64,000 bases of DNA from Convolutriloba macropyga (lineage: Eukaryota): assembly GCF_964194025.1 (NCBI RefSeq), contig NC_134476.1:16926001-16990000 (forward strand). The letters are read 5' to 3'. The position numbers and the translations under genes were made by a program. Below, piece by piece: positions 15,530-39,013 of this stretch; positions within the stretch are counted from its first letter, which is position 1, and each line of letters starts with the position of its first letter. Below the pieces are notes generated by a model. That model saw nothing but the letters and a program-made list of their open reading frames with translations. It had not been told where the DNA came from and made no database searches.

Positions 15530-18500
15530 CTAGCCTTTTTGCTTGTACCCAATCTCTGAATACTTTGTATTAATCTGGTTTTTTTAAGATAAAAGATCAA
15601 GCACTGCAGCTTTAGGAAATTTCTTTCTAAAGAAGATCTATTGGGGTAATATTTATAGTTTTGGCAGAACAATATCTTAGAACAATTGTTTTACCAATTC
15701 TGGTTTTCAAGGGAAGGATGTATGTTAGAGGAAATAGAGTTTGGTCAAAAGTCATTGTTGATGAAATAGGAAGACTATTTTAAATAGTGAAAATGCAAAA
15801 GTTTTTCTAAAACTGATTTGACTTACCGTTAGTTAAATTCTAGTGCAGTTACTTTATGTTAATCCTGATTTAAACCTACGTAGTTCACTTTCAGATTATT
15901 AGACGAACTTGCAGGAATTTTATACGAGCAGGGAGTGTAGGATAAGAGCTTGCAATTGTTTGGTAGAATAATATTTTAGGAAGAAGTAGTGTAGAAATCC
16001 GTAGTTTACATTAAAATTGGCATAAGCAGATACTGCGAGTAAATTAAATAATTTAAATCAAGTTACTTAAGTTAGTTTTGGTATTTGAGTTTGTAATAAA
16101 AAGCTTTACTTCATCAGCGCCACTAGGAGGCGTTTTGTACCTTTTTGCTTGTCCCCAAACTCTGAAAACATTGAATTAATCTGCTTTTTTTAGACAAGTG
16201 ATCAAGCACTGTAGCTTCAGAAAAATGTTTTTTAAAGATGATCTTTTGGGGAAAAATTCGTAATTTTGGCAGATCTGTTTCTTAGATAATTTGTTTTTCT
16301 ACCAAACCTGGGTTTCAATGGGAGGATGTATGTCAGAGGCAACAGAGTTTGATCAAAAGCCATTGTTGATGAATTAGGAAGACTATGTTATATTGCAAAA
16401 ATGCAAAAAAATTTAAAAACTATTTTATTTTATCATAAGTTAAATTTTAGTGCAGCTAGTTTATATTAATTCGGAGCTAGACCTACGTAGTTTTTTCTCA
16501 TATTTTTAGACAAACTGGCTGGATTTTTTGACTAGCCGGGAGTATAGGATTAGAGCTTGCAATTATTTGGGACAATCATAATCTAGGAAGGAGTAGTGTA
16601 GAAATCCGTAGTTTACATTAAAATTGGCATAAGCAGATACTGCGAGTAAATTAAATAATTTAAATCAAGTTACTTAAGTTAATTTGGGTATTTGAGTTTG
16701 TAATAAAAAAGCTTTACATCAACAGCGCCACTGGGAGGCGTTTTGTATCTTTTTGCCTGTCCCCAAACTCTGAAAACATTGAATTAATCTGCTTTGTTTA
16801 GACAGGTGATCAAGCACTGTAGCTTCAGAAAAATGTTTTTTTTAAAGGTGATCTTTTGGGGAAAAATTCGTAATTTTGGCAGATCTGTTTCTTAAATAAT
16901 TTGTTTTTCTACCAAACCTGGGTTTCAATGGGAGGATGTATGTCAGAGGCAACAGAGTTTGATCAAAGACCATTGTTGATGAATTAGGAAGACTATGTTA
17001 TATTGCAAAAAATGCAAAAAAAATTAAAAACTATTTTATTTTATCATAAGTTAAATTTTAGTGCAGCTAATTTATATTAATTCGGAGCTAGACCTACGTA
17101 GTTCTTTCTCATATTTTTAGACAAACTGGCTAGATTTTTTGACTAGCCGGGAGTATAGTATAAGAGCTTGCAATTATTTGGGACAATAATAATCCAGGAA
17201 GGAGTAGTGTAGAAATCCGTAGTTTACATTAAAATTGGCATTAGCAGATACTGCGAGTAAATTAAATAATTTAAATCAAGTTACTTAAGTTAGTTTCGGT
17301 ATTTGAGTTTGTAATAAAAAAGCTTTACTTCAACAGCGCCACTGGGAGGCGTTTTGTACCTTTTTGCTTGTCCCCAAACTCTGAAAACATTGAATTAATC
17401 TGGTTTGTTTAGACAACTGATCAAGCACTGTAGCTTCAGAAAAATGTTTTTGTAAAAATCATCTTTTGGGGAAAAATTTGTAATTTTGGCAGATCTGTTT
17501 CTTAGATAATTTGTTTTTTTTTACCAAACCTGTGTTTCAAAGGAAAGATGTATGTCAAAGGCAACAGAGTTTGATCAAAAGCCATTGTTGATGGAATAGG
17601 AAGACTATGTTATATTGCAAAAATGCAAAAAAAATTTAAAAACTATTTTATTTTATCATCAGTTAAATTTTAGTGCAGCTAATTTTTATTAATTCGGAGC
17701 TAGACCTACGTAGTTTTTTCTCATATTTTTAGACAAACTGCCTGGATTTTTCGACTAGCCAGGAGTATAGGATAAGAGCTTGCAATTATTTGGGACAATA
17801 ATAATCTGGGAAGGAGTAGTGTAGAAATCCGTAGTTTACATTAAAATTGGCATAAGCAGATACTGCGAGTAAATTAAATAATTTAAATCAGGTTACTTAA
17901 GTTAGTTTGGGTATTTGAGTTTGTAATAAAAAAGCTTTACTTCAAAAGCGCCACTGGGAGGCGTTTTGTATCTTTTTGCTTGTCCCCAAACTCTGAAAAC
18001 ATTGAATTAATCTGCTTTGTTTAGACAAGTGATCAAGCACTGTAGCTTCAGAAAAATGTTTTTTTAAAGGTGATCTTTTGGGGAAAAATTCGTAATTTTG
18101 GCAGATCTGTTTCTTAAATAATTTGTTTTTCTACCAAACCTGGGTTTCAATGGGAGGATGTATGTCAGAGGCAACAGAGTTTGATCAAAGACCATTGTTG
18201 ATGAATTAGGAAGACTATGTTATATTGCAAAAAATGCAAAAAAAATTAAAAACTACTTTATTTTATCATAAGTTAAATTTTAGTGCAGCTAATTTATATT
18301 AATTCGGAGCTAGACCTACGTAGTTCTTTCTCATATTTTTAGACAAACTGGCTAGATTTTTTGACTAGCCGGGAGTATAGTATAAGAGCTTGCAATTATT
18401 TGGGACAATAATAATCCAGGAAGGAGTAGTGTAGAAATCCGTAGATTACATTAAAATTGGCATAAGCAGATACTGCGAGTAAATTAAATAATTTAAATCA

Positions 18501-20003
18501 AGTTACTTAAGTTAGTTTCGGTATTTGAGTTTGTAATAAAAAAGCTTTACTTCGACAGCGCCACTGGGAGGCGTTTTGTACCTTTTTGCTTGTCCCCAAA
18601 CTCTGAAAACATTGAATTAATCTGGTTTGTTTAGACAACTGATCAAGCACTGTAGCTTCAGAAAAATGTTTTTGTAAAGATCATCTTTTGGGGAAAAATT
18701 TGTAATTTTGGCAGATCTGTTTCTTAGATAATTTGTTTTTTTTTACCAAACCTGTGTTTCAAAGGAAAGATGTATGTCAAAGGCAACAGAGTTTGATCAA
18801 AAGCCATTGTTGATGAAATAGGAAGACTATGTTATATTGCAAAAATGCAAAAAAAATTTAAAAACTATTTTAGTTTACCATCAGTTAAATTTTAGTGTAG
18901 CTAATTTTTATTAATTCGGAGCTAGACCTACGTAGTTTTTTCTCATATTTTTAGACAAACTGGCTGGATTTTTCGACTAGCCAGGAGTATAGGATAAGAG
19001 CTTGCAATTATTTGGGACAATAATTATCTGGGAAGGAGTAGTGTAGAAATCCGTAGTTTACATTAAAATTGGCATAAGCAGATACTGCGAGTAAATTAAA
19101 TAATTTAAATCAGGTTACTTAAGTTAGTTTGGGTATTTGAGTTTGTAATAAAAGGTTTTTGTTTCAACGGCTCCACTGAGGGGCCTTTTGTACATACTTT
19201 TTTGTTTGTACCCAAGTCATGAATATATTGTATTAATCTGATTTATTTCGACAAGTGATCAAGAACTGTGGCTTTAGAAATTATAATTCTAAAGAAGATC
19301 ATTCGGGTAAATGTTTGCAGTTTTGGCAGATCAGTTTCTTAGAACACTTGTTTTATTACCAATTCTGGGTTTCAAGGGGCAATAGAGTTTGAAACAAAAG
19401 TCATTGTTGATGAATAAGGAAGACTATGTTAAATTGTGAAAATGGAAAAAGAATCCTAAAAACTGGTGAAACAACTAAATTGGTGTAAACAGATACTGCC
19501 AGTGATTTTAATATTTTAAATCAACTTACTTAAGTTATTCTAGGTGTTTGAGATGTAATAAAAGTTCCTCGTTTCAACGGCACCACTGAGGGGCGTTTTG
19601 TACTTACTTTTTTGTTTGTACCCAAGTCATGAATATATTGTATTAATCTGATTTATTACGACAAAGTATCAAGAACCGTAGCTTTAGAATTTTTGTTTCT
19701 AAAGAAGATCATTCGGGTAAATACTTGTTGTTTTGGCAGATCAGTTTCTTAAAACATTTGTTTTTTTACCAATTCTCGGTTTCAAGGGGCAATAGAGTTT
19801 GAAACAAAAGTCATTGTTGATGAATAAGGAAGACTATGTTAAATTGTGAAAATGGAAAAAGGTTTTTAAAAACTGGCGAAACAATGAAATTGGTGTAAAC
19901 AGATACTGCCAGTGATTTTAATATTTTAAATCAACTTACTTAAGTTAGTCTAGGTGTTTGAGATGTATTAAAAGTTCTTCGTTTCAACGGCGCCACTGAG
20001 GGG
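15530..20003. repeat. tandem array (satellite): six ~610-bp units plus two ~410-bp deleted units
   Basis: AGTAGTGTAGAAATCCGTAG recurs at ~15985, 16592, 17203, 17815, 18425 and 19037. Shorter units lie at ~19150-19560 and ~19560-19975. Confidence 0.95.
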
Positions 20004-22022
20004 AGTTGAGTGGCTTTTCTTGAATAAACAACCTAATGAACAACAAAAATGAGATGGCTTTTTGTATTGGTTACTGAATAAAATTGTATTAGTGCATCAG
20101 GCCAGAATCCAAATCCACTAGAGAACAAACTTTAATTTTGAAGAGAAATAAATATGTAGAAGAGAGGTCGAATTTTAAATTGAACTGAAGGAATATCGTT
20201 TTCTCCAGAGATAATTTAAACTATTAGTTTTATGAAAATAATAATGGGGAGGCTGACTATCAATCCCGGCACTACGCGGGGAGTTATGTTTTATTAAACG
20301 GACACTTACCAAATTGTAATGGCATGTATATCCGAAGGTCTCCTCGAGCTGGTATAGTTTCCGAGCCATTCTGACGGTCCACACCCGAGTTATTGGAGTT
20401 TTTTGAAGTATTTAGGTACAAAACGACAACCTCAATAAAAACTGTGAACAAAAATTTTTTCAAAACGAATAAGTTTAACGTATTGTTGAATCTAGTACAA
20501 AGAAAAGAATTTTAAAGACAGTTTTGAGTTGTTTAATGCAAATAAAATTTGAGTATTTTTAAGTGAGGACTATTTGCACTTGTTATCGAATTACTATTGT
20601 TGAAGTCGGAATGACCTGAAATTTTTAAGATAGACCAATTTCGACGCCGGAAAACCGAATTGGATTTAAAGTTTGACACCTCACCAACCTCCATGGAACT
20701 ACTGCACGCCGGTGCTGCGGGATGTAAAATTTGAGTGCGAAAACGGAAAAAGGGTGATTTTGAGTGGCCGCATGACTTTGAAATGGTAAAAATTTGATAA
20801 CCTGAGACAAATAGTGACCAAAAATAGCCACCCCAGTTATTTTTGGCGAACTCAGATTTTTCGGGTTTGGGAACCCACGACTCCCAAACAATTTTCCAAA
20901 ACGCAAACGTTTCTAAACAAACAATGCTAGAGCAACAATTTTAGGCCTGCATTTAGTTGGTACCATGCACTTTATAAATTTCTTTACCCAAAGTTATTTT
21001 GATTCCTATAACACGAGATATGATATTGTGAAATTGATTCTCTACGGAACACCCAGGAGACAAGTGCGCATGCACTGCTCGTGTTCTTTTACGAGCTAGG
21101 TTGTGGTGACAAATTAGTGTGTAGGTGCACTTGTGGATTGTTTTTTTGCGACAGTGGTTATTTTTACCAACTTGATCCCTTATTTTTTCGGATGACGCCT
21201 AATTGATCCGTGGAGGTCAAATTTTGGGTTTTTAATAAAATTGGTCTTTCGGGATCGTATAATTACAGGGAGCTACATGAAAGGGTTTGAAAAATGGGAA
21301 TAACAACTGCTTATAGTTTACGGGTTGAGAATATTTATTTATTCAACACATGGTTTTTCAGAGAGATTGATTAGAGCTAGTTGATTTTGGTAGCAGAAAC
21401 GGAGCAATAAAAGCGTTCAAAGCATCCTTCAATGTTTACTAAGCAAACAGTAAAAAAATGACATTTGAATATTTCTGATGAAGCGGAGTGGATTTGTTCT
21501 TATGAGAGCCCAATTGTCGTTTAGTTAAGATAAGTCGAAATTTGAACAAAGGTTGGTAGCAGCTGAAAGACCGAGCATAAATTTGCAATGATTTGTTTGC
21601 ACAGCAGATAGCGCCCTCAACGGATTTAACTCAAGATCAGCGTTAGAAATGGTGAACTTTTTCATGTTAGTCGCATTCCCAATTCAACTTCGGCTTCTCT
21701 TTTTTTGACTTTTTCTCCACTTTTTGTCTTTTACACTATTTTACACTTTTGGGGATTTATATGCAGTAATTTGCTTCAAAATCAGCAGTATTACCGGTGA
21801 CATTTTTGTTTTCACGTCTTAAGCACTGAGAAAAAATCATCGATACCAATACGAAGCTGTGAAAACAAAAATATCATTGTTGGTTACCGCAAAAGTCAGC
21901 GCTAAAAAATTTGCTTTATTTTTTCCCTATAAATTGTCGTAAAGTTTACAATTTTTATGGCATTAAGCGCTAAAAATCCAAATTCTTCTAACCTTTCATG
22001 ACATTCATTTTAATTCTTACAA

Positions 22023-22378: not shown

Positions 22379-22505
22379 AGTAGTGATGTGCCTCCTGGGA
22401 AAACTACTGGGGGGCATAATTGTCTTCCCTTGAACACTACGGGGGGACACAAGTGTCTTCCTGGTCAAACTACAGGGTGAGACACTTGAAATTTTTTCTC
22501 CTTAT
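22379..22505 (+). repeat. Maverick left TIR
   Basis: Reverse complement of 38750-39013, with fewer ~33-bp GACACAAGTGTC units. Confidence 0.9.
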
Positions 22506-22740
22506 TTCCCCCTGCCATGCATGAAACCAATCTTAGAAAACCATTTTCCCTCCACTCTTTTGACTGGTTTGCCGCTTTCGGCTTAAAGCCATTTTAACTA
22601 CCACCGCTTTTGCTTTGAAATTTACTTCGTCATATGTCTGCGCCAGGGTACTTTAATCATATTTTGGTCTGGGCCCATTTCAGCATTTTACCCACAGTTA
22701 TAAAGAACCTACACATCCAATACTAAAATACGAATTCCAA

Positions 22741-23076
22741 ATGCCACCGAGGCGAAAACGATCCTTGTTGGACTGCTTTCTGTGTCACTCCAAATTCTTA
22801 AATTCTGAAGATCATTTTACTCATTTTGAAGAAATACACCCTAACAATTTTAAATATCAATGTGAAACCTGCAGTCGAAATTTTTGGCGTTTAGTTGACA
22901 CACGATACGACCAATGTGAAAATTCAGCAATTATTGCGTCACCTCTAATTATTCAAAACCCTGTTTTAATGTGTAACATTTGCTTCAAAAATTTTACCCC
23001 AAAAAGTGGTTTGACTAATCATGCTAAAAGTCATTCCCCCTGGAAAATACTCTTAGTAGTCGTTGAATCCCGATAA
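22741..23076 (+). CDS. small C2H2 zinc-finger protein within the Maverick
   Basis: CFLC..F..HFEEIH, YQCETC and CNIC..F..LTNHAKSH, with a basic N-terminus PPRRKR. Confidence 0.65.
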   Translation: MPPRRKRSLLDCFLCHSKFLNSEDHFTHFEEIHPNNFKYQCETCSRNFWRLVDTRYDQCENSAIIASPLIIQNPVLMCNICFKNFTPKSGLTNHAKSHSPWKILLVVVESR

Positions 23077-23499
23077 AACGACGTTAGAGAAGCCTTTTAT
23101 TTGTCTTTTTTTATAATAATGTTTTAATTTTTACATTAATTTGTATTTAATTTATATTAATGATTTTATAATTTATCCATGCGCTTCAACTACAACTAAA
23201 TGTAAGTTATAAGTTATTTTACTGCTTGAATTGTACAATACTACACGTCTGTGTTTTGGTTTTGGTTCTATTATAAGACCATTATTTGAAGATAAATGAG
23301 ACATATCACTATTGTTGCTTGCTTCGCTTTCAACTGCTTCCAATTCTGCAAAAGAATTTTAAAGGGCTGACGGGGAAATTGCGTAGGGTTCGTTCCAGTC
23401 ACTACTATCTTGATCAATCTCACTTTCTGAGTAATCTGGCTGATCGAATCCTGGCTCGTTAGAGAAAAGCTTTAGTTTTCAGATATCAAACTTTCCGGG

Positions 23500-26400
23500 T
23501 TTAGTTGTGAAACTGAATCCACTGTTATGAATTTTCCCGCTGTTCAATACTCTCTTGAAGACCTCGTGCTTTAGTTGCTTTTGCCCCTCATGTGTTATTC
23601 CCTTCGCACTTTTCTTCTGACACTCTGAAAGAACAATACAATCAATCCATTTTCTCTTTTAATCCATGTGCTTTCCCAGCCCAGGTTCGCGTGTTCCTGT
23701 TATATTAAAAAGACACCTTCAGGAATTCGGTTATTTTCAAAACTGGAATTTGTTTTAATAAAATATGTGTTTACACATACGCTTCGCTGGCATTGAACAA
23801 ATTTTGGGTTTCAAGTCACAGAACTCTTCCATTGCCAAACCTGCTAGTTCGTCTTTGAATTTGAGAGTTACTATATGATTTTCTGTGTTGTACAAGGCGT
23901 TATCAGAAGCGTAATTGGAAAAGTCGAATTATGTGTTGAATTCCGCTCGTGCCAGCTCCTCTTAGAAGTAATCACAATCAACAGCATAGGTAAGTGAGGC
24001 CGTATCAGTGTAAAAAAAGTTCACACCTGAACCAATGTTTCATATTGTCGTATCGAAATCGAAACATGAATGGTTTAGAAAGATCCAGAATTGAAGCAGC
24101 AACTATTCTAGGTTTCACCCAGTATATTTTCGTTTTTCTTGTTGTCATGACTGCCATGTTTTCATCTAAAGTTTTATAGGATTTCATGTTAAATTTATCT
24201 GTGTGGTTGAGGAGAGCTCGTTCATCTCGGACGACGAAAGCGTTAACTCGGTTTCGCATGCATTCACAACACTTTCCCAAAGAAGCGTTGTTCATGAGTT
24301 TGAAGAAGTTTTCAGCAATTTTGTTGGTTGCTGCTTGCCGCAATCTTGTGTTCAGTTCGATACACTTCGCCATCCACTTTGATTGTCTGAATTTGAGCAC
24401 CTTGTGCAGTTTTGAGACTTCAGGGCGGTCGCGTTTATGAATCTTTATCGATACATAGTGTAGGGTATTATCCTTCTTATCATAGAGTATTTGAAGCATT
24501 TTGTTGCACATTGAAACTTTTGGGAGATGATATTCTTCCAAAAGGTCCAACTGGTAACTACTCAACCACATGCTGTCCACAGGTTCTCGAGCAGGTGCCA
24601 TTGGAAAATCTTGGTGAGCATCGTGAATTGAGTCGGGGTACTCCAAGTCGACGCAGACGATATATCCAAATTCATCGTCTCCCGGAGTTTGCAAAATTTG
24701 TTCAATCGTCACCTCTGTGTCCGTCTTGAAGGAATTGAGTTGCAAGCAGAAATCTTTCATGATCCCACCATAGATGTTGTTAGCATCTATGGTGAGGGCA
24801 TATGTTGATTTCTGTGTGTCATCAAAACTTTCCAGTTATTTGTTGTATGGCGAGAAAAGTCTTTTTGTGTGACATACCCCTCTCAACAATTCTTCTGCTA
24901 GATCAAGATGGTTGCGATCTGTGAGGAGCTCCAGGTCGGGGTGACATAACTCCAGAAAGGCATCGCCCTCTAAGTGTGGTGCTGATAGATATTGAGCACA
25001 GTTCAAGCTGTACGAGTGCAGACAGACAGTTCGTAGCCGCTCAAACCAACAGGCAAGCTGGAGGATGTCGACTGTCAAGTACAGATCGTGATAGTCACCC
25101 ATGTTTTTAAAATCAAATCTTTCGAAGATGAGCTTTGCTTTTTCGTAGTCACTTTCAGTTATTGTGATTTCTCCTGATTTGAATTTTTCGACCCAGCTCT
25201 TCTTAGGCGGCAATTTTTTAGCTTGAACTTTCTAAAGGTGTCCATGTAGGAGTAGGGGTAGAATCCTCTAACCTGCAGTAGTTTCACACCATTTTGGTCA
25301 CATTCTTCAAAATGGTTATCGAGTATATCGAAACTGTCTTCAGGCAAAGATTGAACTAGTTTATCAAAACGAGACTGTAAGAACCGAAGAAAATCGATAA
25401 AGCGAAGTTCTTCTTATGGGTATGACGTTTTGATTTTTCTTAACAATATCTTTGATCCAAACTTTAAAGCTAAAACTGATGTAATTCTCATCAGTTTGAG
25501 GAATTATTGAAAATTTATTATTAGGGTTGCATTGATGAAGACTCTCTACAACATGATGCAAGTCATATCCTGACAAGTTATGTGCAATTATGGGAAAAAA
25601 GCTCGGTGTTCTGTGCTGCAGGTTGCACTTTGAGTGAGCCCAGCCAAGAAACTGATTTGAGAAATGGCAGTGATCCAAGACTTTTTTGTTGTCCGTAGAA
25701 AAAGTAGTTTCACATATCCAACACTGAGTCGCCATCTCTTTTGCTTGTCCAACAGCTCCTGTGAAGTACCTCTGTTTTTGCTTTGTCTCGTAGATATCTT
25801 TTGCTAGTGTCTCCATTTGCTTTATAAAAACTTGCATGCAATCTTCACCCCTGTACAGATGGAAAAATTTCAAATTTGGACTTCCATGTGAAATGGCTAA
25901 ACAATAGTAACCGCTCGGAACGTGTTTATCGAAGACACGAGTTTTTGACGTCTGCGGATTTTGTTGAGCTGATGATACCGGTACAATGATTGACTCTAGT
26001 TCAAAATAGACAACCAGTGGGAGAGCTGTTATTGCTTGAAATTTTTTGAAAGCGAGACTGTTGCTGTCTGGCTCAGGTAGCAGGACTCGACAAGTTTCGA
26101 ATTGATGGCAAGCTTTTTCGTGTTTTTGAAGTGTTTAGCTGCTCGAGCAAACATGAAAGCAGTTTTGACAGATTTTCACCTGTGCATCAATCTGCCGCCC
26201 TTACACTTTTCTAACTAAGTTTACCAGGTCTGTTATTAGCACGTAGTGATTACGTTCACCTTCAGTTATCAGTAGGAGATCAACGACAAAATCAGAGTCG
26301 TGCTTTGAATTGCGGAAAGAATACAAACCTTTCTTTTCGTATCGAAAAATGTTCACTTTTACTTCATTACGTCTTTCAAACGCGCTTATTTTGTCAATCG

Positions 26401-27330
26401 GCATCGGCATCGCGGACATCTCTTACTGCTTGATGAGTTATAGGGTTTGAGCGAGCGTATGTTTCGGGTCTTTTTGCTGTACCGATCCAGAGGTTGTGTG
26501 AGGGGGCAAACTTTCCCCTGCAAAAGTTAGGCTACCGTGAAACAATACAAGAAACAGTTTGGATCGAAAAAGTTTTGGATATTGAGCAGGCACTTTAGAG
26601 CACTAAGTTCAGTTGGTAGTGCTATGCAGGTTAATCCACGAACAGGGTTGAAATTTGCAAATCGAACTTCGAGTCTTTCTACCTTTTCAATAATCCAACC
26701 ACTTCCACGTGTGGCATAAGTTGAAACCACGTTTGCAATATGCTGCACGGTCTAAAGGAACTGCTCTTCGGAGAGACCATCCGTGTACACAATTGGAACA
26801 TCAGCGTTAGCGTAAATTGTAACGTGTTTTTCTTCTTCATTAACCTGCTTAGTGATTGTAATGCTCACAGAAAGTTGAACTTTCTGAGGAAATTCAAGGG
26901 TCTTTTGACGTATAGGTTCATTGATGTGATATCTTGATGAGTTAATGAAAGACAAAACATCAATGTGATCATTACCTTCTATCTCGTAGATCTCCAGGGC
27001 ACCTCGAATTGGCGACTCTACTGGTACTGCTTGATTATTGTTCTAGGCTCGGTTCCAATAAGGCAGTCCGTGAGCATTCTTCAGATGTTGATGAAAGTTA
27101 CTCTGGCTGTTGAAAACCAGAGTGCAGTAGGCACACTGATTTCGAACTTCTCCACCGTGCTCCCGTCGGGTGTGTTGGTTCATTATCAGAATTTTGTGAG
27201 TTTCAAAACCACAACTATTACACTCCAAGGCGGGGAATTCCGGTAGAACTCCATGAACGCGCTGTTTGTGTTTTAGAAGGCTTCTTTTGTCGGCCAGTTC
27301 CTTTGCACAAATTTCACACGGTTGGACCAT
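23500..27330 (-). pseudogene. protein-primed family B DNA polymerase (pPolB) with N-terminal C2H2 fingers and endonuclease-VII-like domain, frameshifted
   Basis: Fragments in order: three C2H2 fingers (27043-27330), RGSGW, CWIC..DHCH..GWAHSKCN, IIAHNLSGYD, RGFYPYSYMD, YHDLYLTVDI, DANNIYG, VDLEYP, FFKLMNNASLGK, YTDTAS (DTDS degenerate), KFKDE, LKPK, KSAKGI. Confidence 0.95.
23625..23780 (-). other. putative 156-nt spliceosomal intron in pPolB
   Basis: On the minus strand: AAGC|GTATGT ... TTGAT ... TGTTCTTTCAG|AGTGT. It contains an in-frame stop, and removal gives LKPKICSMPAKQCQKKSAKGI. Confidence 0.7.
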
Positions 27331-28129
27331 TTTTGAGTTTTTCAAATTTTTCTTTCAAAAATTCGACTGACTGTTATACTGAGAAAGTCACTGAGCATAT
27401 GAAGTCAAAGTGTAACAACAGTTTACTGGTAGAGTTAGACGGAGTGTTAGTTTGTTGAAAGTTGCGTTTTACACGAGAACAAATTACCTATAAGGGTTTG
27501 CTTGCACTTTGACACAACTTTCCGAGTGTGGAACGCAACTATTGGTAGGAGTGTAGTTCAACTTCAACACACGATAACTTTTGACCATTAAGCGGCGTGA
27601 TCCTGTTTCAGAACTACTCATTTTACATTACTTCCATGCTTGGTAAATGGTTATGGTTGTAGTTATATCTTATATCTACCACAACTGAAACATAGCCAAT
27701 GCAGTATAATTACAATATATTCTTTTCTGTCGGGAAACAGTTCAAGTATTCAAAATACTCTTCTACAAAACTTTGTTTTAGACTTTCTCTACTCTTCGAG
27801 GGTGTATCGAAATGCTATTGTATTTTCAAACTTATTATCAGTTTTCTGTTTTACGTTTTTGGAAAATTTGAGAGTATTCTTATACTGTTGACAAAAATGG
27901 CTCTTTATTGCTATTATCAGCGTGTTTGTGTGGACACACTGTAATTCCTTGAAAGACAGTAAACAGTCCATCTTATCATTGTGCAAAAGTAAATTGTAGC
28001 TATATATAAGACAAAGATAGATAGCAAGCATTGGACATTAAACATTTGACATTTACCACTAACACTGATAACACATTTTTCAAATGTCAATTGGTGAAAA
28101 TCATAAAAGTGGCGGTGGAATAACTAAAA

Positions 28130-28870
28130 GCGTTCTAAATAGAGAAATTGAACTTCTTTAGTGTTTAAAAACCCTTTTTTACTATATGGTGAATAAAACA
28201 TGTTTTTTTAAAACTACTTAAGTAGTGAAAATTTTGCATTTTACAGAATTCCTACAGTCGGAAATTGACTTTTTACCTTTTAATACCTTTTTTACTATAT
28301 GGTCAATGAAACAAAAGTTTTTTTAACTACTTAAGTAGTGAAAATTATAAACTATTACAGAATTCTTACATATGAAAATTGACTTTTAACCATTTAAAAA
28401 CCTTCTTTACTATATGGTTAATAATGTAAAAGTTTTTTAAAGTACTTAAGTAGTGAAAATTTTGCACTTTTTTTAGAATTCCTACACATGAAAATTGACT
28501 TTTCACCATTTAAAAAACTTTATACTCTATGTTGAATAAAACAAAAGTTTTTTATAACTACTTAAGTAGTAAAAATTTTGCACTTTTACAGAATTCCTTC
28601 CAATGAAAATTGACCTTTAACATTTTAAAAACCTTTTTTTCTGTTTGGCTAATAAAATAAAAATTTTGGATAACTAACAAAATAGTGAAAAATTTGCGCT
28701 TTAACAGATTTCCTACATATGAAAATTGACTTTTTACCATTTGAAAACCTTTTTTTACTATACGGTTAATAAAAGAAAAGTTTTTTATAACTACCTAAAT
28801 AGTAAGATTTTTGCACTTTTACTGAATTCCTGCATATGAAAATTGACTTTTTACCATTTCAAACCCTTTC
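28130..28870. repeat. ~117-bp tandem repeat, ~6 copies, inside the Maverick
   Basis: GAAATTGAC/AAAATTGAC recurs at ~28261, 28375, 28491, 28606, 28722 and 28839. Most units carry palindromic (CT)ACTTAAGTAG. Confidence 0.9.
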
Positions 28871-29188
28871 ATTCTTCAATGTGCGTTATAAACAGAACTT
28901 TGCTCTCTGTTTTTTATGTTATAACATGTGAGCTTGTTTTCTTCCAACGTTCACTAACTAACATATTGACAGAATACTTTTTGATTCTGCCTTATCTTTC
29001 TTGTTTTTTTTCTCTAATCAAAAACAGATATTATGATGTTCAATTGAATTTACAATTGCAACTTGATGTTTTTTTACATAATCACAAACAAAAAATAATA
29101 TTAAAGCACACACAAATTATTTATTTAGAGGTTCAAAAAAATGGTAACTGTTTGAACAAGTTTCAGTTCTCAGAGTGTAGTTTAGTAC

Positions 29189-29930
29189 TCAATTATACAT
29201 ATAAGTGTTGTTCGATTGGCACGTTTTTTCTGTGGCGCCTTGTATAACTTGGGAGTCTCTGAAATCAAGGGTGTTCTGTTGGTTGAGGTTCTGTACATTT
29301 TGGAAGGATACTTTAGCTTTCTCTGCACTCTGCGTTGGTATCACAAAAGTTGTCTCTGAAAGAAGAGAACTATCAAAATTTGGTTCAATCTGCTCGGTTG
29401 ACACCATATTCCAAGATATTTTGTCCATGATTTAAGCAATAGCTGATTTTCGTTTTGTATCTGTTGTTTCCGGCGTAACAATGGGGCTTGGGTTGTTTGT
29501 TGCCGGTGATACAATTGGTGAAGTAGCTGGTGAGGTTGGTGGAGGTTGGATTCCCCAAAGTTGAAACAGCTCTTCTATTGCCTGCAAGTGGCCGGGTTGA
29601 TTCTCAAAAATAGGCACACCCTCACAATCGTATCGGTAAAAAGTCTCTTTGTGTCAGGAGAAAGTGTGTCAATGTCATAAGGGAACAGTAGGGGCCTTTT
29701 TCGCGGAACGCTGTATCTTCCAGCTGTTAACACAGTTTTCGAGCATTGTCTTTTGTAGATAAGTATCTATCTGGTAGTGTTGCAAAAAAATTAGCCCACA
29801 CTTTTGGTATGATGCAATGTTCAAAAGATCTCCAACAGCCTTTTCGCTATTTTTCTTTTACTCTATAAAAACGATGTAGTTTTTGTATTGAGTGTGATAG
29901 ACAATTCTAAGCTCCCAAGCATCTTCAGAC
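29189..29930 (-). pseudogene. unidentified Maverick accessory ORF(s), fragmented
   Basis: Adjacent open segments 29432-29617 (Pro/Thr/Ser-rich) and 29189-29428, with no recognised motif. Confidence 0.4.
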
Positions 29931-30769
29931 TAGCAAAGAATGTGGTAAGACATTACTTGTAAACCACTTTTAAATTTTGGTCTCCTGAAACTGGAGCAGA
30001 ACTGAACAACTATAGTCTTGAGTGTAAAACGAATAACTAAAATCCGGTAAATACCAACATTAGCAACACCTTTGAGTGAACATTGTTGAATACTTAACAC
30101 ACCCAGGTCAGGGGTTGTATCTGTATTTGTGAATGTTTACTCTACACGAACTTTTCTGTGTTATAGTTTTATGTATTGGTTACTAATTGCAAAGTGCATA
30201 ATAAGTTCTTATCTACACAGACATAAATCGAAGGGTTTTCAGTTTTTGATATGGAAGGGTTCATAAATCGAAGGGTTTTTTCATGTTGATATGTATACTA
30301 ACGTTTATAAAGTATACAATAGCAAGAAGTTTACAACCAGTTTTCTTTAGTATAGACTTATTTATATCAAACGCCTAAAGCCCCCAAGTTTTCGCTTGCT
30401 GTGTAATTTTGAGTTTTTTTTATCTATGGACACACCCAGAGGTCACAATTGTTTTCCATTAAATTGCACTAGGTCCTGCTCTATGTTGAGTAATATTATC
30501 CAAATATAAACTTTATTACCTACGCAATAAAACAGTTTATGTGAGGGTCACTTGTTTCGCCTTACATTTTGACGAAATTGCTAAGTTGTTTACCCAGATT
30601 TAAATTCAAACTCAAATCAGCAGCTCACATGTTAACCAAGAGCGCTCTTATCAGTAGCATGCATTTCAAGTGTTGTTTGTGTGTTGTGTGTTAAAGCCAC
30701 TTGCAAATAAAAACATTTCCGAAAAATCTTTCAAAACAGGTAGTTTGACACAGTTTACGAACACATTTC

Positions 30770-31144
30770 TTGAAAATGCCATTTACTGCTGATAAGGACG
30801 CGGAGTTTGAAGACGTGTATTTTGAAATCTCTAGAACAGAGAAAAGATTGATACGTGCAACAGTGAAGTCTTATAGAAATACGGGTACCTATCTATTTCT
30901 CCACCTGTTTAAAAACGTTGACAAAGAATATGAAATTCAACAACGAATTCCTCTAACTTTAGATGAGTTTGAGCTTTTGTCTAATAAGTCAGCAAAAATA
31001 CGTTCTGCTGTTGTAGATACAGCTGCTGAAAACGATCAAGCTAACAAGGCTCCAGCAGCGAAAAGTCGTAAAACTAAAAAAGAAGACCAGCACGACAATC
31101 AGGTTAATTGTAATATTTTAGAAAATGGTGGAAGCAATGTATAA
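30770..31144 (+). CDS. PC4-like ssDNA-binding protein (Maverick accessory)
   Basis: Pattern FEIS..RLIRATVKSYRN.GTYLFLHLF..QRIPLTLDEFELL resembles the PC4 fold (VTVxxF..IDIR..GIxLTxEQW). Confidence 0.55.
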   Translation: MKMPFTADKDAEFEDVYFEISRTEKRLIRATVKSYRNTGTYLFLHLFKNVDKEYEIQQRIPLTLDEFELLSNKSAKIRSAVVDTAAENDQANKAPAAKSRKTKKEDQHDNQVNCNILENGGSNV

Positions 31145-31600
31145 GCGGGTTTCTTTAAGCAGTTTCAGGAAAACTTTCAATATTTCATGTCGGAATAAAA
31201 ACCTAATTTTTCTTGTCTCAAGAACTTTGCTATTTGCATGCATTTTGAGAATATCCACTGTGATTATAAACCTACTAATCATTACCATGTTCTCATCGAC
31301 TTGATGGAGTTCTCAGAAGATTTTCTCAAACAAACAAAACCGTGTTGAGTTCGCTATATTTTTACAACTTTCGGGGATCTGTTCTCACCTTCGGATACAC
31401 TGGAAGCTGAGGGAGATAATTTTCAAAAAATTTTGCTGGCCGTGGAGTACAACAAAAGCAATTTCAACGGATACTGAAAAGCAGACACTGATTCTTCCGT
31501 ACAAAAGCGCTTGCCAATGTTTACGAAGAATGTCTTAAACAAATTTCAACAACCAAAAAGCTTACAACGAAAATGCTGATCAACTAAAAACTGAAACTGT
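31125..31600 (+). pseudogene. fragmented Maverick ORF with HUH-like motif
   Basis: FAICMHFENIHCDYKPTNHYHVLID is read from 31202 onward, with HYHVLI at 31280-31297. Confidence 0.35.
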
Positions 31601-31769
31601 TCAATTGATTCCCTCTGGACCGCATGTTGGTGCTTTTTGTTAAATAATGGAGATTTTTATAAGTGGATATGGAAAATTGGAAATTGATTCTGATGTTCTG
31701 TGTGTTCATTCCCTTTATAAAGAAAAAACTAAATTTTGAAAAAAAAAATATTTTCAATATAGGTTAGTA

Positions 31770-32203
31770 TTGTTGGAAAATAATATGAAGCGCAAAACGA
31801 AGCAAATCAATATCACTCATTTTTAATTGTTTTTGTCAACTGAAAATAATATAAGCAATATAAATACAAAATAAGCCACACAAAAATGAGTTATATTTAT
31901 GTATAGGTTGGTTTCTCAGTAATTCATATACGGTATTAACATTAAAGTTTGAGGCGATTTTGCTCTGCAAGTGTTTGTATGACGATAGAGTTTGGCCTAT
32001 GGGATCTGCAAAAATAAATTTTTGATCTCTTTGACAGAGAAGAATCCAATGGGTTCCAATTGATGCAGAGGCTGAAATATTGACTACAATGAAACTGTTG
32101 TCGATAAAGACTATTTGAAAGTTATCAGGCGCATAAAATCCGCGAAATTTGTTTTTTTGTTCCGAACATGTCTGAATCAGAGAATTCAATTGTCTTCGTC
32201 CAT
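31770..32203 (-). pseudogene. adenain-like maturation cysteine protease
   Basis: FRGFYAPD, FIVVN..GTHW, FADPIG and CGLFCIY provide the His-Asp-Cys triad motifs. Confidence 0.9.
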
Positions 32204-32210
32204 TAACTTG

Positions 32211-33140
32211 TTAAAATATGATTTTTTTAAACTTTGTGCGCCGAATCAATGTAAATGGTACTTGCTTTTTACCAATAATGAACATTTCTGCATTATGAGC
32301 CAAGGCCGCAGAAAACATTAGTTCAATTGATACGGAACAATTTGTAAGTTTGGCATGAATAAAATCATGAGACGCTGCTGAGTACTCGTCAGATTGAAAA
32401 CCATAATAAAATGATTCCATTTCTATTGTCGATTTTGGCTAAATCTGACATAGTGTTAAAGAAAACACAATTTGATTCTTCAGTTGAAATAGGAGTATCA
32501 GCAAATGGGAGACATTTACGGTGAATGCAAATTTGTTCCGAATTAAAATTTCTATAGTAAAATTGGTTATGCGGCTTGCTTCCGAGGAAAGCTTCGTTCG
32601 TGATTAAGCAAATGGCGAGTCTTCTAATGGGCTCTCTACCCAAAACATCTTCTTGCTTTCAGCTCCGCAAAACAGGCAGAAAACAGAAAATTTGCAGTAA
32701 CCGTTTCTAGTTAAGGATGGGATAGACAGCAGGGTCTTTTCTATTGCTGACACAACATCATCGTCCAGCGTCATTTTCCGTACATATAAATTAGGTTCTG
32801 TAATTTTTATTTTGTAGGGTTTTCCAGCGTCATCTGAAATTAAAAAAAACAGTCAATTGATCGTCGAAAAGAGATTCGAAGAGTTACACATCTGCGCAGC
32901 AATGTTGTCATATTTCAAATCGGCGTCAGAAGATTTTACAATCTTGCACTTGATTTAAAGAAAAATTATTTGGAGATCAAACGAAATTTGCGGTCTCCTG
33001 CAAATTCATAATCTAGCATTGGTCCATTAGCGTTGTAAACTGGTCCTAATTTCTGACAAAAACTTCCATCAAATATAACAAGAAGAGTTAGTTTCTCAAA
33101 TAAATCCAGCGAAATATGCGTTGCTTCGGCTGGTAACATA
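32211..33140 (-). pseudogene. major capsid protein (double jelly-roll), frameshifted with an internal deletion
   Basis: SLDLFEK, GPMLDYEFAGD, LYVRKMTL, EPIRRLAICLITNEAFLGS..NQFYYRNF, SIELMF. Confidence 0.85.
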
Positions 33141-33147
33141 TTTTTGA

Positions 33148-33576
33148 TCATCTTTTACTTTGGCGGAGAAGTCCGACCGACTTCTTTTGGGTACTCTTTT
33201 TCCTGAAATTGTGGTTTTGCGTTGTTTTCTTCGATCCAGTGCGTAAGCGTTTTGATTTCCTTCTCATTCTTCTTTTTCCTCTCATTCGGAGGGCTAAAGA
33301 TCCACCTGTTTGTTTTTTCACTGAGTTTGATATTGTGCTCTTTAGAGCCGGCTTTGGTGATTTCTTTTTACCGATAACATCCATCAAATCAGGGACGCTT
33401 TGCAGCAACAGTTCTATTCTGATGCGCGTAGCTGCTGTCAAAACAAACTTCCGAGCAAGTGGCAGTGCAACACGTCCCATACCGCTAGCTAATGCTCCAA
33501 AACCATAACCACTTTGCATAAAGTGACAGTAAAAGTGAGGCAATGATGATGCTTGATTTGCGTAGTAGGAGTCCAC
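33148..33576 (-). CDS. basic core/PZ-like Maverick protein
   Basis: YYANQA..LPHF...QSGYGFGALASGMGRVALPL motif with an Arg/Lys-rich tail, in the usual position between minor and major capsid genes. Confidence 0.75.
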   Translation of the reverse strand: MDSYYANQASSLPHFYCHFMQSGYGFGALASGMGRVALPLARKFVLTAATRIRIELLLQSVPDLMDVIGKKKSPKPALKSTISNSVKKQTGGSLALRMRGKRRMRRKSKRLRTGSKKTTQNHNFRKKSTQKKSVGLLRQSKR

Positions 33577-33599
33577 TTAACCACCAAATTCTTTAATTG

Positions 33600-34240
33600 G
33601 TAATGTTAAAATAGCTTTGTTAAAATAAATATGTTAATACTGATACTCAATTGTCTTTGTGTGACTAAAAATTAAATGCTTTCCAGCGCAAAGGTCTGCA
33701 GGAAAATCACCATAATAAGCTTTCGTATCATCATTTATCATTAATTGGCTTGTCCGTTTCTGGAATACATTTAAAGCTAATTGTACTATGTATTTCTTCA
33801 CTTGGAAAGATAATTCCCTCGTATTTACCAAAAATGAGTTCATATTTCCCACTGCTTTTGATTTCTTGGAAAGAAAAGTTAGGCAGATCGACTGTTCTCT
33901 TGATAGTTGCTAAAAGTTGATCACATGTATCATAAGTGCCGGCCATAACCTGTAAATTTGCTCCATTGTAGGGTCGTGAATTAACATTAGATCCAGTTGC
34001 CCGGTTTTGTGATTCCTCATATCCCCTGAGACTGAACGCAACCCAATTTCCATTAACTATGTGTTCAATTTTTGTCGGAGAAAATGTTTCACTCAGAGCA
34101 ACTCTCCAGTCTCCTGTGAGATTATTATCATCAAGAAAAAATTTTCTGAAATTTGCTAATGTGATTTCCTGGATAATGTCCATCGAAGCAGATGATATAA
34201 CGTGTACAGTGAACTCATCCTCAAAACGGTTACTAATCAT
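33600..34240 (-). pseudogene. minor capsid protein (penton, single jelly-roll), C-terminally deleted
   Basis: FTVHVISSASMD..TLANFR..LTGDWRVALSE..P and later HLIFSHTKTIEYQY. Confidence 0.85.
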
Positions 34241-34261
34241 TTTGATCTGGAGATTCTTGCA

Positions 34262-35150
34262 CTAGTTGTAATTCTGGCTGATTAAACTTGCCCTGGATAA
34301 TTTCTTTATTAGAATCAATAACAGAATATGTAGGTGGATTAAGCGTCGGAATACCGGCATTTTCATAAGCTTCGTCAGCGAACGATTACTTGTATCCTTT
34401 TTGGAATGCTTCCCCCTTTTTACGATTCGAACAAAGTCACCAGAGTAAAGTTTTGGTTTTTGACTGGGAAGTGTCTGCACATTTAATGATACAAAGCTTG
34501 GTACATCTTTTTGGTAACTTTGCTAGGAGCAAGTTTGGTGATACGATTAACACGAGAGTTAATAGTTTTACGAATTGATCCAAATTGTTAATATAAGAAA
34601 ATGTCCACTTTCCTCTAAATATCTGTTAATAATATTTTTAAGTGACCTGATGTTCCTCTCCGCAAATGCAAACTTCTTTTCGCTTAAAGAACTATACAAA
34701 TGAATTACTCGTTTGTTGCAGTGTTTTGAAAGCCCCCAAAAACTCCGTGTCATCATCTACCCAAACTTATTGTGGTTGCTTGTGCTTGATCATGTTTTGG
34801 AAGGATTTTGTTGTTTCTGTTGCGTATTTTGTTTTCACCGGTTCAACACGTAGATACCTCGAGAGGCAATCAACTGCTACGAGCAAAAAACTAACATCAC
34901 GATTGTTAATTGCAAGCTTGTCAATCTAGCTAAATCTAAAGACTATATTTCATTCAGATCGTTGACGATTGCTTTTAATCGAAGAAAATTCAACCGCCGA
35001 GCACAATATTTTGTGAAGGATGGTTTTGTTTCCAATTACAATTTGACTTTTGTCATTGGTAATTTGCTCAAATCTTGTAATTGCTTTGTACTTCCGAATG
35101 ATGCTGGACCTTTAGTATAGAGTCTATCCAGTAGTTGCACATCTTTAATA
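34262..35150 (-). pseudogene. retroviral-like (rve) integrase
   Basis: LYTKGPASFGS, LLVAVDCLSRYLRVEP, WVDDDTEF, AFAERNIRSLKNII, PKLYSGDFVRI. Confidence 0.92.
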
Positions 35151-36225
35151 ATGAGACAATTTTTTTTCCTTTTGTCTCCTGCTCTGTCTTTTTGTTGGTT
35201 TGATTTTTTGGTTTTGCTGGTTTTGATCCGGAGTCTTTACTTTGACTTCCACTGCTCCGTTCGCTTTTTTGTTGTTCAGGTTTTCCTTGAATGGTTCAAT
35301 TTACTCTTCCTTCTCCTCTTGGCTGTAAACTTTTTTGAGGTATTTTTTAGCATGAGTGTTGGATACTAAATGTGGGGAATCCTGAGTTCATACAAAAGTT
35401 TTAAGTACACGGCTAGATCAATTTTCTCTGTCGGTTGTTGCAAATTGTACAAAAGTTGATATTTTAACTCTCATAGGTTTGTCCTCAATATGAAGGAAAC
35501 CACTCTGGTCCTCAATGGAAACTGTTTCTGAACTAAATATCTTGTTAAGGATTATTTCAGCTCTTTGTATTTCGTTTTCTTCCATTAATTTTACTTCCGA
35601 CCATATAGACTCAAAGTCTGATCGTCTTTTTTTATTACGGGCTCAATTTCGCCATCATCACGAAAGAAAGACTGTGCACTTTCACTTCCATCATCTAATT
35701 CACTTTTTAGATCAACACTACTTGATCTTCTTCTTTTGCTCTTGTTCAAGATTTTAGTTTAATTAGTTTCCTGTTCAGTCGCCTCTTAGCTCTCAAAATC
35801 TGTTGGGTTGTTTCGTTGGAGGACTGGGAATTGAGCAGCTTTCTGTTTATAATTTGGATTATCCAAAATTTCTCTCCTAGTCGGCTGTTTTGACACAAAA
35901 ATTCTTTTCCGTACCAAGACAAACTCCTCCGCATGCATTAATAATTCGTCAAGTTAGGTTAACAAGAGAGACTTTTGCTTCGGAGTAGCTGTAAATTTAT
36001 TACCAATAGCCGGCGCTTTTTCCTCAAACCTGTCTCTTTTGAGAGAAAATGTCAAATCGATGATTCGTAGTTCAAGTAAACTTTTATCCGTGGTCATGTT
36101 TCCAATCATAACATTCAGAAAGCATTCACAGAGAAATTTTTTAATTTTATTTTATGAATTTTTGATGAATTTTTTAGCATGCTTTCCGGCATCTCGAGCA
36201 TTGACTTCAGAATACATATATCTTT
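35150..36225 (-). pseudogene. two conserved Maverick hypothetical ORFs between ATPase and integrase
   Basis: KFLCECFLNVMIGNM (~36100-36145) matches the recurrent Maverick CECxLNxLxGN motif. A second fragmented ORF contains LYNLQQP. Confidence 0.6.
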
Positions 36226-36239
36226 CTCTCTCATTTCTG

Positions 36240-36889
36240 AGGTGGGTAGTTACAGCTTTGGAATATGGCAGATGGAAAATTTTTGGCCTCGGTGGTACAA
36301 TATTTGAACAATAACGTAGTGAGTAGATTGTTTTTGGGTCTAAATCAATCAATAAGTGACCGAATGATTGTTTTGTCGCGAGATCATCGCTGTCTTTTGA
36401 AATGTTTGTATTATTATTATTTGTATAAAGAGTTGTTTTCCAATATAACTTATCTGCTGTATATCTCTGTGAGTTGTGAACAAAATGATGTGTGTTGTGT
36501 TGAGATCAATTGTTCGAGACCATTTACTCTGTTGAAACAAATTATGCTTAACATAGATAACAAGGATTTTTGTGGCGTCCAGCTGTTGCAAGATTTGAAA
36601 ACTCCTTATCATTGAAAATTTCTGCGCAAGAATTGTCAAAGACGTTTAAACAGTTTTCCAACTGCGAAATGAAATCAAATCCCGGAAATTTGGTAAAATA
36701 AGGGTTCAAGTTACGCTTCATCGTTTGAAATTTTGGTTGATCATGTTGATAGAAATAGTATATTGACTTGAAATTAGAGAAAAACGTATTCTTAGGAAGC
36801 ATTTGAAAAATAATTTTGGTCTTTCCTCGACCTGAAGGACCACAGATTGCCATCAAAAGAATATCACTTATTGATATTATTTTATTCAT
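36240..36889 (-). pseudogene. A32-like DNA packaging ATPase
   Basis: Walker A GPSGRGKT, Walker B-like VFDN, AGRHKN, KHNLFQQSKWSRTIDLNTTHIILF, MIDLDPKT..LRYCSNI. Confidence 0.92.
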
Positions 36890-37170
36890 AACTTAGGATT
36901 TGGAAGTGCGTATCCAATTGTGCAGGATAGCAATGAAAACCAAAAAGATGACTACTCACAATCGAGGAGGAAAAAAAACTATTTTGATCAGTGAAACTAC
37001 AATAAGAAAAAAGGAAACTTGTGTAAAATAAATTACCTCAGAGCGCTGTAGTCTAGAGTTGTAAAATCTCCAAGATCGTCTCTCTTTGTTTTGATCATCA
37101 AAAACCAAATCAGTGATTCCTGCTTCTCCACCCCAGCGCAATCTAATTGATCTTCCGATTGACTCATTTT
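36886..37170 (-). pseudogene. small two-TM Maverick membrane protein
   Basis: WRF..RSEVIYFTQV followed by a hydrophobic stretch, then (frameshifted) FWFSLLSCTIGYALPNP, a motif seen upstream of Maverick ATPases. Confidence 0.65.
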
Positions 37171-37625
37171 GAAAGCAAAAGATTCTCAAAAATTAATTCA
37201 ATTCAAATTTGTGTAATTTGATAGCTTATTATTTAGTTAGTTCATCAACCATAAAAAATTTTTTAAGTTATAAATTCAGCGTTTATATCTTCCTTCTTAT
37301 ATGTTACTTTATAGTTCGCTTGGAGTCACTGCCATAGTGGACAAATGATTCCACCTTCCCTTCTCTGACTGCCTCTTCGATTTCATCGGGGAGACTCTCA
37401 TCGTCCAGGGGTACTGGTTCTGGCACTGGATACTTGGGCGCAGGTAAAAGGGTTAGTTTCAGTCTTTTCAGTTTCTATTGTAAAGACATGATACATTTGA
37501 AAGTACCCCATCAGTGAAAGATATTTCAGTAGTTTCAATTTCAGCAGTTTTACAAAGTATTTACTGCTTCCTTAGTACAATTTGATCACGAGAATCAATA
37601 TTTTCTTCTTTCAGAAACCAGGTTA

Positions 37626-38219: not shown

Positions 38220-38560
38220 TCCAAAAAACTGAATGGTTTACGTTTGAACGTTTTTACGAACATGCAGATGAATAGACCAGTCAGGTGACCAACGCAAGCG
38301 TTTGTGATTGGACAAGGCAAAACGGAAGAGTATCGTGGACCCTTTTGGCTATAACCTGCGATAAATCCGGAGGCATCATGCAGAATTGCATGTAAGCGAA
38401 GCACTTTAAATGATTTCCAATAAGTGCCCAATGAAGAGTTATCTATTCCAATGATACCATCATAAGGCCTCAACTTTAGTGCAATTTCTAGGTTAAAATC
38501 GGGGTCCAAGTGCAAGCAGGTTGCCAATAAGTAAATCTACCTTCGCGATAATTGTTGTCA
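38213..38560 (-). CDS. Maverick accessory protein with HAILHDA motif (possible PLA2-like)
   Basis: LRLHAILHDASG..KGPRY..CVGHLTGL. Confidence 0.45.
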
Positions 38561-38749
38561 TGTTGTTTTTTAGCAAGCATTATAGACAAAAGAAAATTAG
38601 GTGATTTTGCAGGGTATTGTGATTACTTTTTTGTGTGTATCTACATGACAGTTCTTTTTCCCCCCAAGGTTTTCAAAGCTCTTCCTGGTTGGTTTCTTTA
38701 AAAAAATTTTTTATCAAAGAGTCCCCCCTCCCCTCTATCAGACTCAGAG

Positions 38750-39013
38750 AAAAAGAAAGAAAAAAATCGAAGTCTCCCCCTTCGTTTGACCGGGAAGACA
38801 CTTGTGTCCCCCCTGTAGTGTTGACAGGAAGATACTTGTGTCCCCCCTCCTGTTGTGTTTACGGGAAGACACTTGTGTCCCCCCTGTATTTTGACCGGAA
38901 AGACACTTGTGTCTCCCTGTTGTGTTCACGTGAAGACATCTGTGCCCCCCCGTAGTGTTCACGGCAAGGCACTTATGCCCCACGTAGTTTGCCCAGAAAG
39001 ACACATCACTACC
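38750..39013 (-). repeat. Maverick right TIR with six ~33-bp subunits
   Basis: Repeated GAAGACACTTGTGTCCCCC units, ending CACATCACTACC. Confidence 0.9.

What the first reader, a model, noticed from the sequence alone, without database searches (positions are those of the whole stretch)
23625..23780. Spliceosomal intron inside the viral DNA polymerase gene
Seen: on the minus strand pPolB reads ..FCDLKPKICSMPAK, then 156 nt of AT-rich non-coding sequence, then resumes ..CQKKSAKGITHE. The insert starts GTATGT, has a TTGAT branch-like motif and pyrimidine tract, ends TTTCAG, and contains an in-frame TAA. Removing exactly GT..AG (phase 1, C|AG) keeps the frame and restores the usual short spacing between the LxPK and KxxAKG motifs. 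No TIR or TSD is evident. Established: Maverick PolB genes are normally described as single long ORFs. Inference: a genuine intron gained by this viral lineage, making polymerase expression dependent on host splicing, or an introner-like insertion.
Basis: partly seen in the sequence, partly recalled or inferred. Interest (0 to 1): 0.8.

Follow-up and report, generated by a model that had tools for sequence, protein, structure and literature searches.

The report
Ancient intron in Maverick polymerase gene
A short non-coding stretch with host-type intron ends interrupts the DNA polymerase gene of a virus-like jumping element (a Maverick) at the same spot in about twenty distantly related lineages, so it is very likely an old intron that the host's splicing machinery removes, although these genes are usually described as intron-free.

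Summary
Confirmed. The 156-nt GTATGT..TTTCAG insert lies in the polymerase gene of a decayed copy of an ~18-kb Maverick family (TIRs, 6-bp TSDs, copies ~98% alike). All 30 copies examined keep GT..AG and have stops in all three frames. The same site and phase carry a GT-AG insert of 59-180 nt in 15 lineages of this genome and 5 metagenome contigs. Their interiors mostly cannot be aligned, while the downstream exon stays under purifying selection. A motif-plus-donor pattern gives 240 hits against 0 in the control. Other families are contiguous here. A second shared intron site (phase 2) lies upstream in some families. No intron-sized gap was seen in other core genes. Best reading: an old U2-type spliceosomal intron kept through DNA-based transposition. 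It is not an active introner. Splicing is inferred: no RNA reads were available, and the window's copy is dead. Papers read call Maverick core genes intronless, and my searches found no report of this. The scan's own unchecked notes report intron-split Maverick polymerases in at least four other genomes. New variant of a known kind.

The parts
23625..23780 (-). Phase-1 GT-AG intron (site 1), 156 nt, in the Maverick pPolB gene
23781..27342 (-). pPolB exon 1 (N-terminal C2H2 fingers through the LKPK motif); decayed in this copy, with stops and frameshifts
23218..23624 (-). pPolB exon 2 (KxSAKG motif onward, acidic tail); this copy lacks about 90 codons that include the DDKR-like and GH motifs
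22379..22673 (.). Terminal inverted repeat at the pol end, starting AGTAGT
38535..39013 (.). Opposite terminal region and inverted repeat; the flanking 6-mers match the other end at 4 of 6 positions (decayed TSD)
22657..23055 (+). Small C2H2 zinc-finger ORF inside the element
28165..28901 (.). Internal ~116-nt tandem repeat upstream of pol
31776..32245 (-). Adenain-like protease remnant
   Evidence: Pfam Peptidase_C5 E 7.6e-5 on a sister copy; mapped
32206..33154 (-). Likely major capsid protein remnant
   Evidence: a low-confidence model hits several viral major capsid proteins; label partly recalled
33637..34258 (-). Likely minor capsid (penton) remnant
   Evidence: Atlas look-alikes are unnamed viral proteins; label recalled from size and position
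34236..35365 (-). rve integrase remnant
   Evidence: Pfam rve E 9e-9 on a sister copy
36170..36892 (-). A32-like packaging ATPase remnant
   Evidence: Pfam Pox_A32 E 2.4e-6 on a sister copy

Best explanation
The insert is very likely an old major-spliceosome (GT-AG) intron in the Maverick DNA polymerase gene, which the host's spliceosome would remove from a nuclear transcript to join the last exon. Shown: position, phase, splice-site ends, stops inside, sharing across lineages, and selection on exon 2. Inferred: transcription by host RNA polymerase II, splicing, and loss of the polymerase C-terminus (end of the palm and the thumb, by analogy with phi29) if the intron stays in. Mavericks copy themselves DNA to DNA (established knowledge), so an intron once gained is inherited with the element and its interior drifts while the ends are held. 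The tree suggests a gain near the base of one clade and losses in some sub-lineages; root and order are weakly supported.
For: GT..AG intact and stops in all three frames in 30 of 30 copies; 13 of these 30 have no stop in the 605 codons before the donor. Same site and phase in 19 lineage representatives (14 from G000, 5 metagenome contigs) plus L230 read by hand; lengths 59-180 nt; not a multiple of 3 in 8 of 19; stop in the exon-1 frame in 18 of 19. Interiors align above shuffles (z>3) in only 8 of 171 pairs, while exon 2 has pN<pS in 171 of 171 pairs (median pN 0.38, synonymous sites saturated). No in-frame ATG after the last stop in 14 of 19, so exon 2 cannot generally be a separate ORF. 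Acceptors are YAG in 19 of 19, with T at -5 in 18 and at -4 in 17, though only AG was required. Pattern search: 240 against 0 control; the 100 listed matches are all phase 1 although ten gap lengths were allowed. Families contiguous at this site show the uninterrupted spacing (77 against 0). In a model of such a relative (pLDDT 94; best PDB match phi29 polymerase, E 2.8e-14) the site falls in the turn between strands 455-460 and 465-469. Host CCT genes carry similar short GT-AG introns. Variants shared between copies are commoner in the interior (0.05 per site) and third positions (0.031) than in first and second positions (0.010, 0.005), and absent at the 12 splice-end positions; counts are small.
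Against: No spliced read or cDNA was seen. The window's own copy is non-functional. The branch-point word is not enriched. Seven of the 19 lineages were found with a pattern that required GTRAGT, so the donor consensus is partly selected; the junction script also required GT and AG, and decayed copies without a solution were left unresolved. Several database proteins that stop at the site are 88-100% identical to G000 families and are not independent. The 5 metagenome contigs share an accession prefix and may be one study with an unknown host.
Confidence: 0.93

Rival explanations
1. An introner or small transposon that inserted recently and happens to be spliceable.
For: Introners are documented inside Maverick/Polinton-like elements of dinoflagellates (10.1101/2025.03.18.643946, part 1 of 3 read). 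An introner origin in the distant past cannot be excluded because the interiors are saturated.
Against: 40 of 40 scored matches of the insert lie at this site in pol copies (39 of 79 candidates were not scored). No TIR or TSD. Unrelated interiors share one site across lineages.
Confidence: 0.03
2. Parallel, independent intron gains at a favoured proto-splice site in a loop, not one ancestral gain.
For: Interiors are mostly unalignable; the site shifts by one codon between lineages (11 or 12 codons after the motif start); 6 state changes on the tree when protein-inferred states are included.
Against: All carriers fall in one clade (41 of 75 rows; 0 of 34 outside; separating branch SH-aLRT 99); phase is identical; closer families have alignable interiors (z 6-15); DNA-verified rows need only 1 change. 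Other core genes show no gains. This rival still means a real intron.
Confidence: 0.12
3. A decay artefact or inactivating insertion in dead copies, never spliced; or a self-splicing intron.
For: The window copy is decayed; splicing was not observed.
Against: The family spread recently with the insert in place (median 98.3% identity among 29 copies; perfect 6-bp TSDs in 6 of 6). None of the 77 contiguous matches belongs to this family. Exon 2 is under selection. No Rfam match, and the insert is too short and variable for group I or II introns.
Confidence: 0.03

Closest known systems
Vertebrate and nematode Mavericks/Polintons (Barreat & Katzourakis 2021, PMC8097293; Widen et al., 10.1101/2022.07.12.499685; passages read)
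   Same: TIRs, 6-bp TSD, pPolB, rve integrase, ATPase, protease, likely capsids; 17-19 kb.
   Different: Both papers describe the core genes as intronless (in nematodes introns occur only in cargo genes). Here pPolB carries one or two conserved GT-AG introns.
Introner-bearing Maverick/Polinton-like elements of dinoflagellates (10.1101/2025.03.18.643946; part 1 of 3 read)
   Same: Spliceosomal-type introns inside Maverick-like elements.
   Different: Those are mostly young, repeated introners acquired after integration. This intron is old, single-site, inherited across families and not dispersed.
Ginger1 DNA transposons (PMC2836005; passages read)
   Same: A DNA transposon's core enzyme gene with 1-4 GT-AG introns at conserved positions and phases.
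   Different: Cut-and-paste transposase, no polymerase or capsid.
Intron-rich mirusviruses (PMC12768974; abstract and passages read)
   Same: dsDNA viruses whose GT-AG introns are taken as a sign of nuclear transcription.
   Different: Another realm of viruses; their introns are enriched in morphogenesis genes, whereas here introns were seen only in the polymerase.
Group I introns in cryptophyte Polinton-like viruses (PMC12220804; passages read)
   Same: Introns in PLV genes.
   Different: Self-splicing, 309-376 nt, not in pPolB; no Rfam match here.

Membership tests
Major (U2-type) spliceosomal intron | GT..AG ends with GTRAGT-like donor and YAG acceptor with pyrimidine tract | tested here: met
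   donor consensus partly selected by the search pattern, acceptor not
Major (U2-type) spliceosomal intron | Removal restores frame and motif spacing; interior non-coding | tested here: met
   spacing equals that of contiguous relatives; stops in all frames
Major (U2-type) spliceosomal intron | Position and phase conserved, interior diverged | tested here: met
Major (U2-type) spliceosomal intron | Branch-point consensus | tested here: inconclusive
   YTRAY in 10 of 19 against 7.6 expected
Major (U2-type) spliceosomal intron | Excised from RNA (junction reads) | not testable with these tools
   see Tried and rejected
Introner / MITE | Dispersed near-identical copies at unrelated sites | tested here: not met
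   40 of 40 scored hits at this site in pol copies; 39 candidates not scored
Introner / MITE | TIR or TSD at the ends | tested here: not met
Group I/II self-splicing intron | Conserved RNA structure / Rfam match | tested here: not met
   lengths down to 59 nt
Maverick/Polinton | TIRs and 6-bp TSD | tested here: met
   ~300-bp TIRs 94-99% alike and perfect TSD in 6 of 6 sister copies; decayed in the window copy
Maverick/Polinton | Protein-primed family B polymerase | tested here: met
   No Pfam hit for this family's own exon 1; PF03175 in 9 of 35 aligned relatives; model of a 48%-identical relative matches phi29 polymerase
Maverick/Polinton | rve integrase, A32-like ATPase, adenain-like protease | tested here: met
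Maverick/Polinton | Double and single jelly-roll capsid proteins | tested here: inconclusive
   No Pfam or PDB sequence hit; model pLDDT 43, many hits are major capsid proteins; unnamed viral look-alikes for the minor one
Maverick/Polinton | Intronless core ORFs (as described in print) | tested here: not met
   pol interrupted at least once in family A and in 10 of 10 further elements; descriptive, not a defining feature

The most novel reading that the evidence does not exclude
A recently transposing clade of animal Mavericks keeps introns only in the polymerase gene because splicing serves as a switch: retention of the last intron would give a polymerase lacking its C-terminal thumb region, tying replication to cell types or states that splice it, much as the P-element's last intron does (recalled).
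Probability: 0.12. Interest if true: 0.85.

Novelty: new variant of a known kind. Interest (0 to 1): 0.56.

Why it matters
Maverick core genes are described as intronless and 'intact' elements are picked by full-length ORFs (PMC8097293). An ORF-based survey would call this whole clade broken or truncate its polymerase: 25 of the 54 closest database proteins break at this site. Conserved introns also indicate long-term nuclear transcription with host splicing, give rare markers for element phylogeny, and offer a compact, multi-copy case of intron retention and loss. The claim is testable by one RT-PCR or RNA-seq junction.

Tried and rejected
RNA: no RNA holder listed; this is no evidence either way. 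Contigs of runs X1-X4 (unknown kind, one study) laid on a sister copy, L031:2300-7600, covered all 30 bins including the insert, like DNA; none of the 15 joints shown (of 23) matches the intron ends 3373/3530. A single-protein scan of viral contigs found nothing; the alignment scan gave 22 distant relatives, contiguous wherever the motif was read. A third candidate site suggested by P0048-P0053 (ending near FHYK) is not present in G000: 2 matches against 3 control, neither in a pol frame. PDB sequence search with the pol alignment gave no real hit. The capsid model was low-confidence; the Atlas did not answer for it. Cluster look-up gave no names. Kapitonov & Jurka 2006 was not held, so its intron statement is known only through PMC8097293; Pritham 2007 and Repbase reports were not seen and could mention such introns. 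Paper searches found no report of conserved spliceosomal introns in Maverick pPolB; subscription papers and supplements were not searched. Passages of 10.1101/2023.08.22.554363, 10.1101/809541, PMC8502044, 10.64898/2026.07.28.741278 and PMC12721341 held nothing on it. Scan notes by place and by sequence were empty.

Full report
Observation. It has five stops in the exon-1 frame and stops in both other frames. There is no TIR or TSD at its ends and no Rfam match.

The element. It lies in a Maverick spanning about 22379-39013. This copy is decayed: every core gene has stops or frameshifts, and about 90 codons of exon 2 are missing. It is 88-89% identical to a young family (40 of 89 candidates scored). 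Six sister copies were read in full: 17.6-18.5 kb (one 22.9 kb with an internal duplication), ~300-bp TIRs, AGTAGT ends, perfect 6-bp TSDs in 6 of 6. They encode an rve integrase, an A32-like ATPase and an adenain-like protease, and probable capsid proteins (labels partly recalled; searches are suggestive only). Pfam did not hit this family's polymerase exon 1. Nine of 35 aligned relatives hit PF03175, and a model of a 48%-identical relative matches phi29 polymerase (pLDDT 94, E 2.8e-14). The host is a eukaryote of 1.18 Gb whose CCT-delta scores higher against the top PDB group (about 770 bits) than the next (644); I recall these as mammalian and yeast, so an animal is inferred.

Within the family. 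All 30 copies held (window plus the 29 best) have the insert, 155-156 nt, with GT and AG intact and stops in every frame; 13 of 30 have no stop in the 605 codons before the donor. The 29 other copies are 98.3% alike at the median. Singleton changes are spread evenly (0.16-0.23 per site), as expected from decay after insertion. Shared variants favour the interior and third positions, on small counts. So the family transposed recently with the insert in place.

Across families. A second, divergent Maverick happened to lie beside one sister copy and had a different insert at the same site. Following this up gave 14 lineage representatives in G000 plus L230, and 5 metagenome contigs (L109-L112, L117), each with a phase-1 GT-AG insert 11 or 12 codons after the motif start, 59-180 nt long. 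Interiors align above shuffles in 8 of 171 pairs, chiefly between the closest families. Exon 2 has pN<pS in 171 of 171 pairs. Eighteen of 19 inserts have a stop in the exon-1 frame, 8 of 19 would shift the frame, and 14 of 19 offer no ATG for a separate exon-2 ORF. Genome-wide, the motif followed by GTRAGT occurs 240 times against 0 in the control, and the 100 listed matches are all phase 1. The uninterrupted motif occurs 77 times against 0, in other families only. Caveats: seven lineages were found through a donor-containing pattern; decayed copies without a GT-AG solution were left unresolved; the branch-point word is not enriched.

Databases and tree. Of the 54 best database relatives, 18 are contiguous, 25 break at the site (23 with a tail that fits reading into a phase-1 GT) and 11 do not reach the motif. 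Several derive from this genome or a close one. In a quick tree of 109 rows (22 distant contiguous representatives left out to save time), all carriers lie in one clade: 41 of 75 rows carry it, 20 lack it, 14 are unresolved; 0 of 34 outside carry it. DNA-verified rows need 1 change, all scored rows 6. The root within the clade is weak, so early gain with later losses is the likely but unproven history.

A second site. Comparing ten further elements showed another intron near codon 335, phase 2, after a VNVFR motif: 139 pattern matches against 4 control; acceptor found in 17 of 20 fetched loci, 109-187 nt; also in L230 and metagenome contig L110. The window's family has site 1 only; two elements have site 2 only; two have both. 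All 10 elements have at least one pol intron. Capsid, integrase, ATPase and protease genes showed no intron-sized gap in the 9 elements where they were found.

Mechanism. Shown: anatomy, conservation and selection. Inferred: nuclear transcription and U2-type splicing, as for host genes with similar short GT-AG introns. In the model the site lies in a beta-turn after the catalytic YSDTDS motif, so retention would cut off the last ~85 conserved residues (calling these end of palm and thumb rests on recalled phi29 anatomy). DNA-to-DNA replication explains why introns persist. The origin of the intron cannot be read from saturated interiors. A recent introner is not supported: 40 of 40 scored matches of the insert are at this site in pol copies.

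What is known. Passages read call Maverick core genes intronless in vertebrates (PMC8097293) and nematodes (10.1101/2022.07.12.499685). Introners occur in dinoflagellate Maverick-like elements, group I introns in cryptophyte PLVs, conserved introns in Ginger transposases and many introns in mirusviruses. Eight searches found no report of conserved spliceosomal introns in Maverick pPolB, but the two founding papers and Repbase were not available. The scan's own unchecked notes list 27 such findings in at least four other genomes (eight shown); they are not independent support, but suggest the trait recurs.

Verdict. Real and very likely a functional, old spliceosomal intron (0.93). New variant of a known kind. 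Interest 0.56: it contradicts a standing description and affects how intact Mavericks are counted, but introns in nuclear DNA elements are not unexpected and splicing was not observed.

Noticed in passing
G000 elements at C11:20445001-20465000, C2:61363501-61383500, C8:35958501-35978500, C8:10796501-10816500; L230; L110: Second conserved phase-2 GT-AG intron in pPolB after a VNVFR motif; 139 genome matches against 4 control.
   Followed up: yes
L299-L302 against family A: Capsid 88-90%, ATPase 84% and integrase 72-82% identical to the window's family while the polymerase is only 33-48% identical, suggesting polymerase modules are exchanged between Maverick families.
   Followed up: partly
G000, whole genome: Very Maverick-rich: 9638 first-look candidates for one pol query and at least 20 lineages.
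   Followed up: partly
P0003, P0007, P0034: The end of exon 1 (EFxGLKPxxYS) appears tandemly duplicated just before the intron site; the P0003 cluster (69% identical, 53 members) includes ~18-kb contigs.
   Followed up: no
P0048-P0052: Database proteins that end shortly after FHYK followed by V, a possible third (phase 0) intron site in relatives; absent from G000.
   Followed up: partly
window 15534-20025: Tandem array of ~610-nt units, 6-8 copies, with strong GC skew, outside the Maverick.
   Followed up: no
window 43495-43690: Near-perfect 196-nt palindrome, 98-nt arms 97% complementary with no spacer.
   Followed up: no
window 9800-13100 and 46900-47450: Clusters of short inverted and direct TTCACCGC-containing repeats, MITE-like.
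   Followed up: no
L325-L328: Several host CCT chaperonin genes are intronless or nearly so while paralogues are intron-rich.
   Followed up: no
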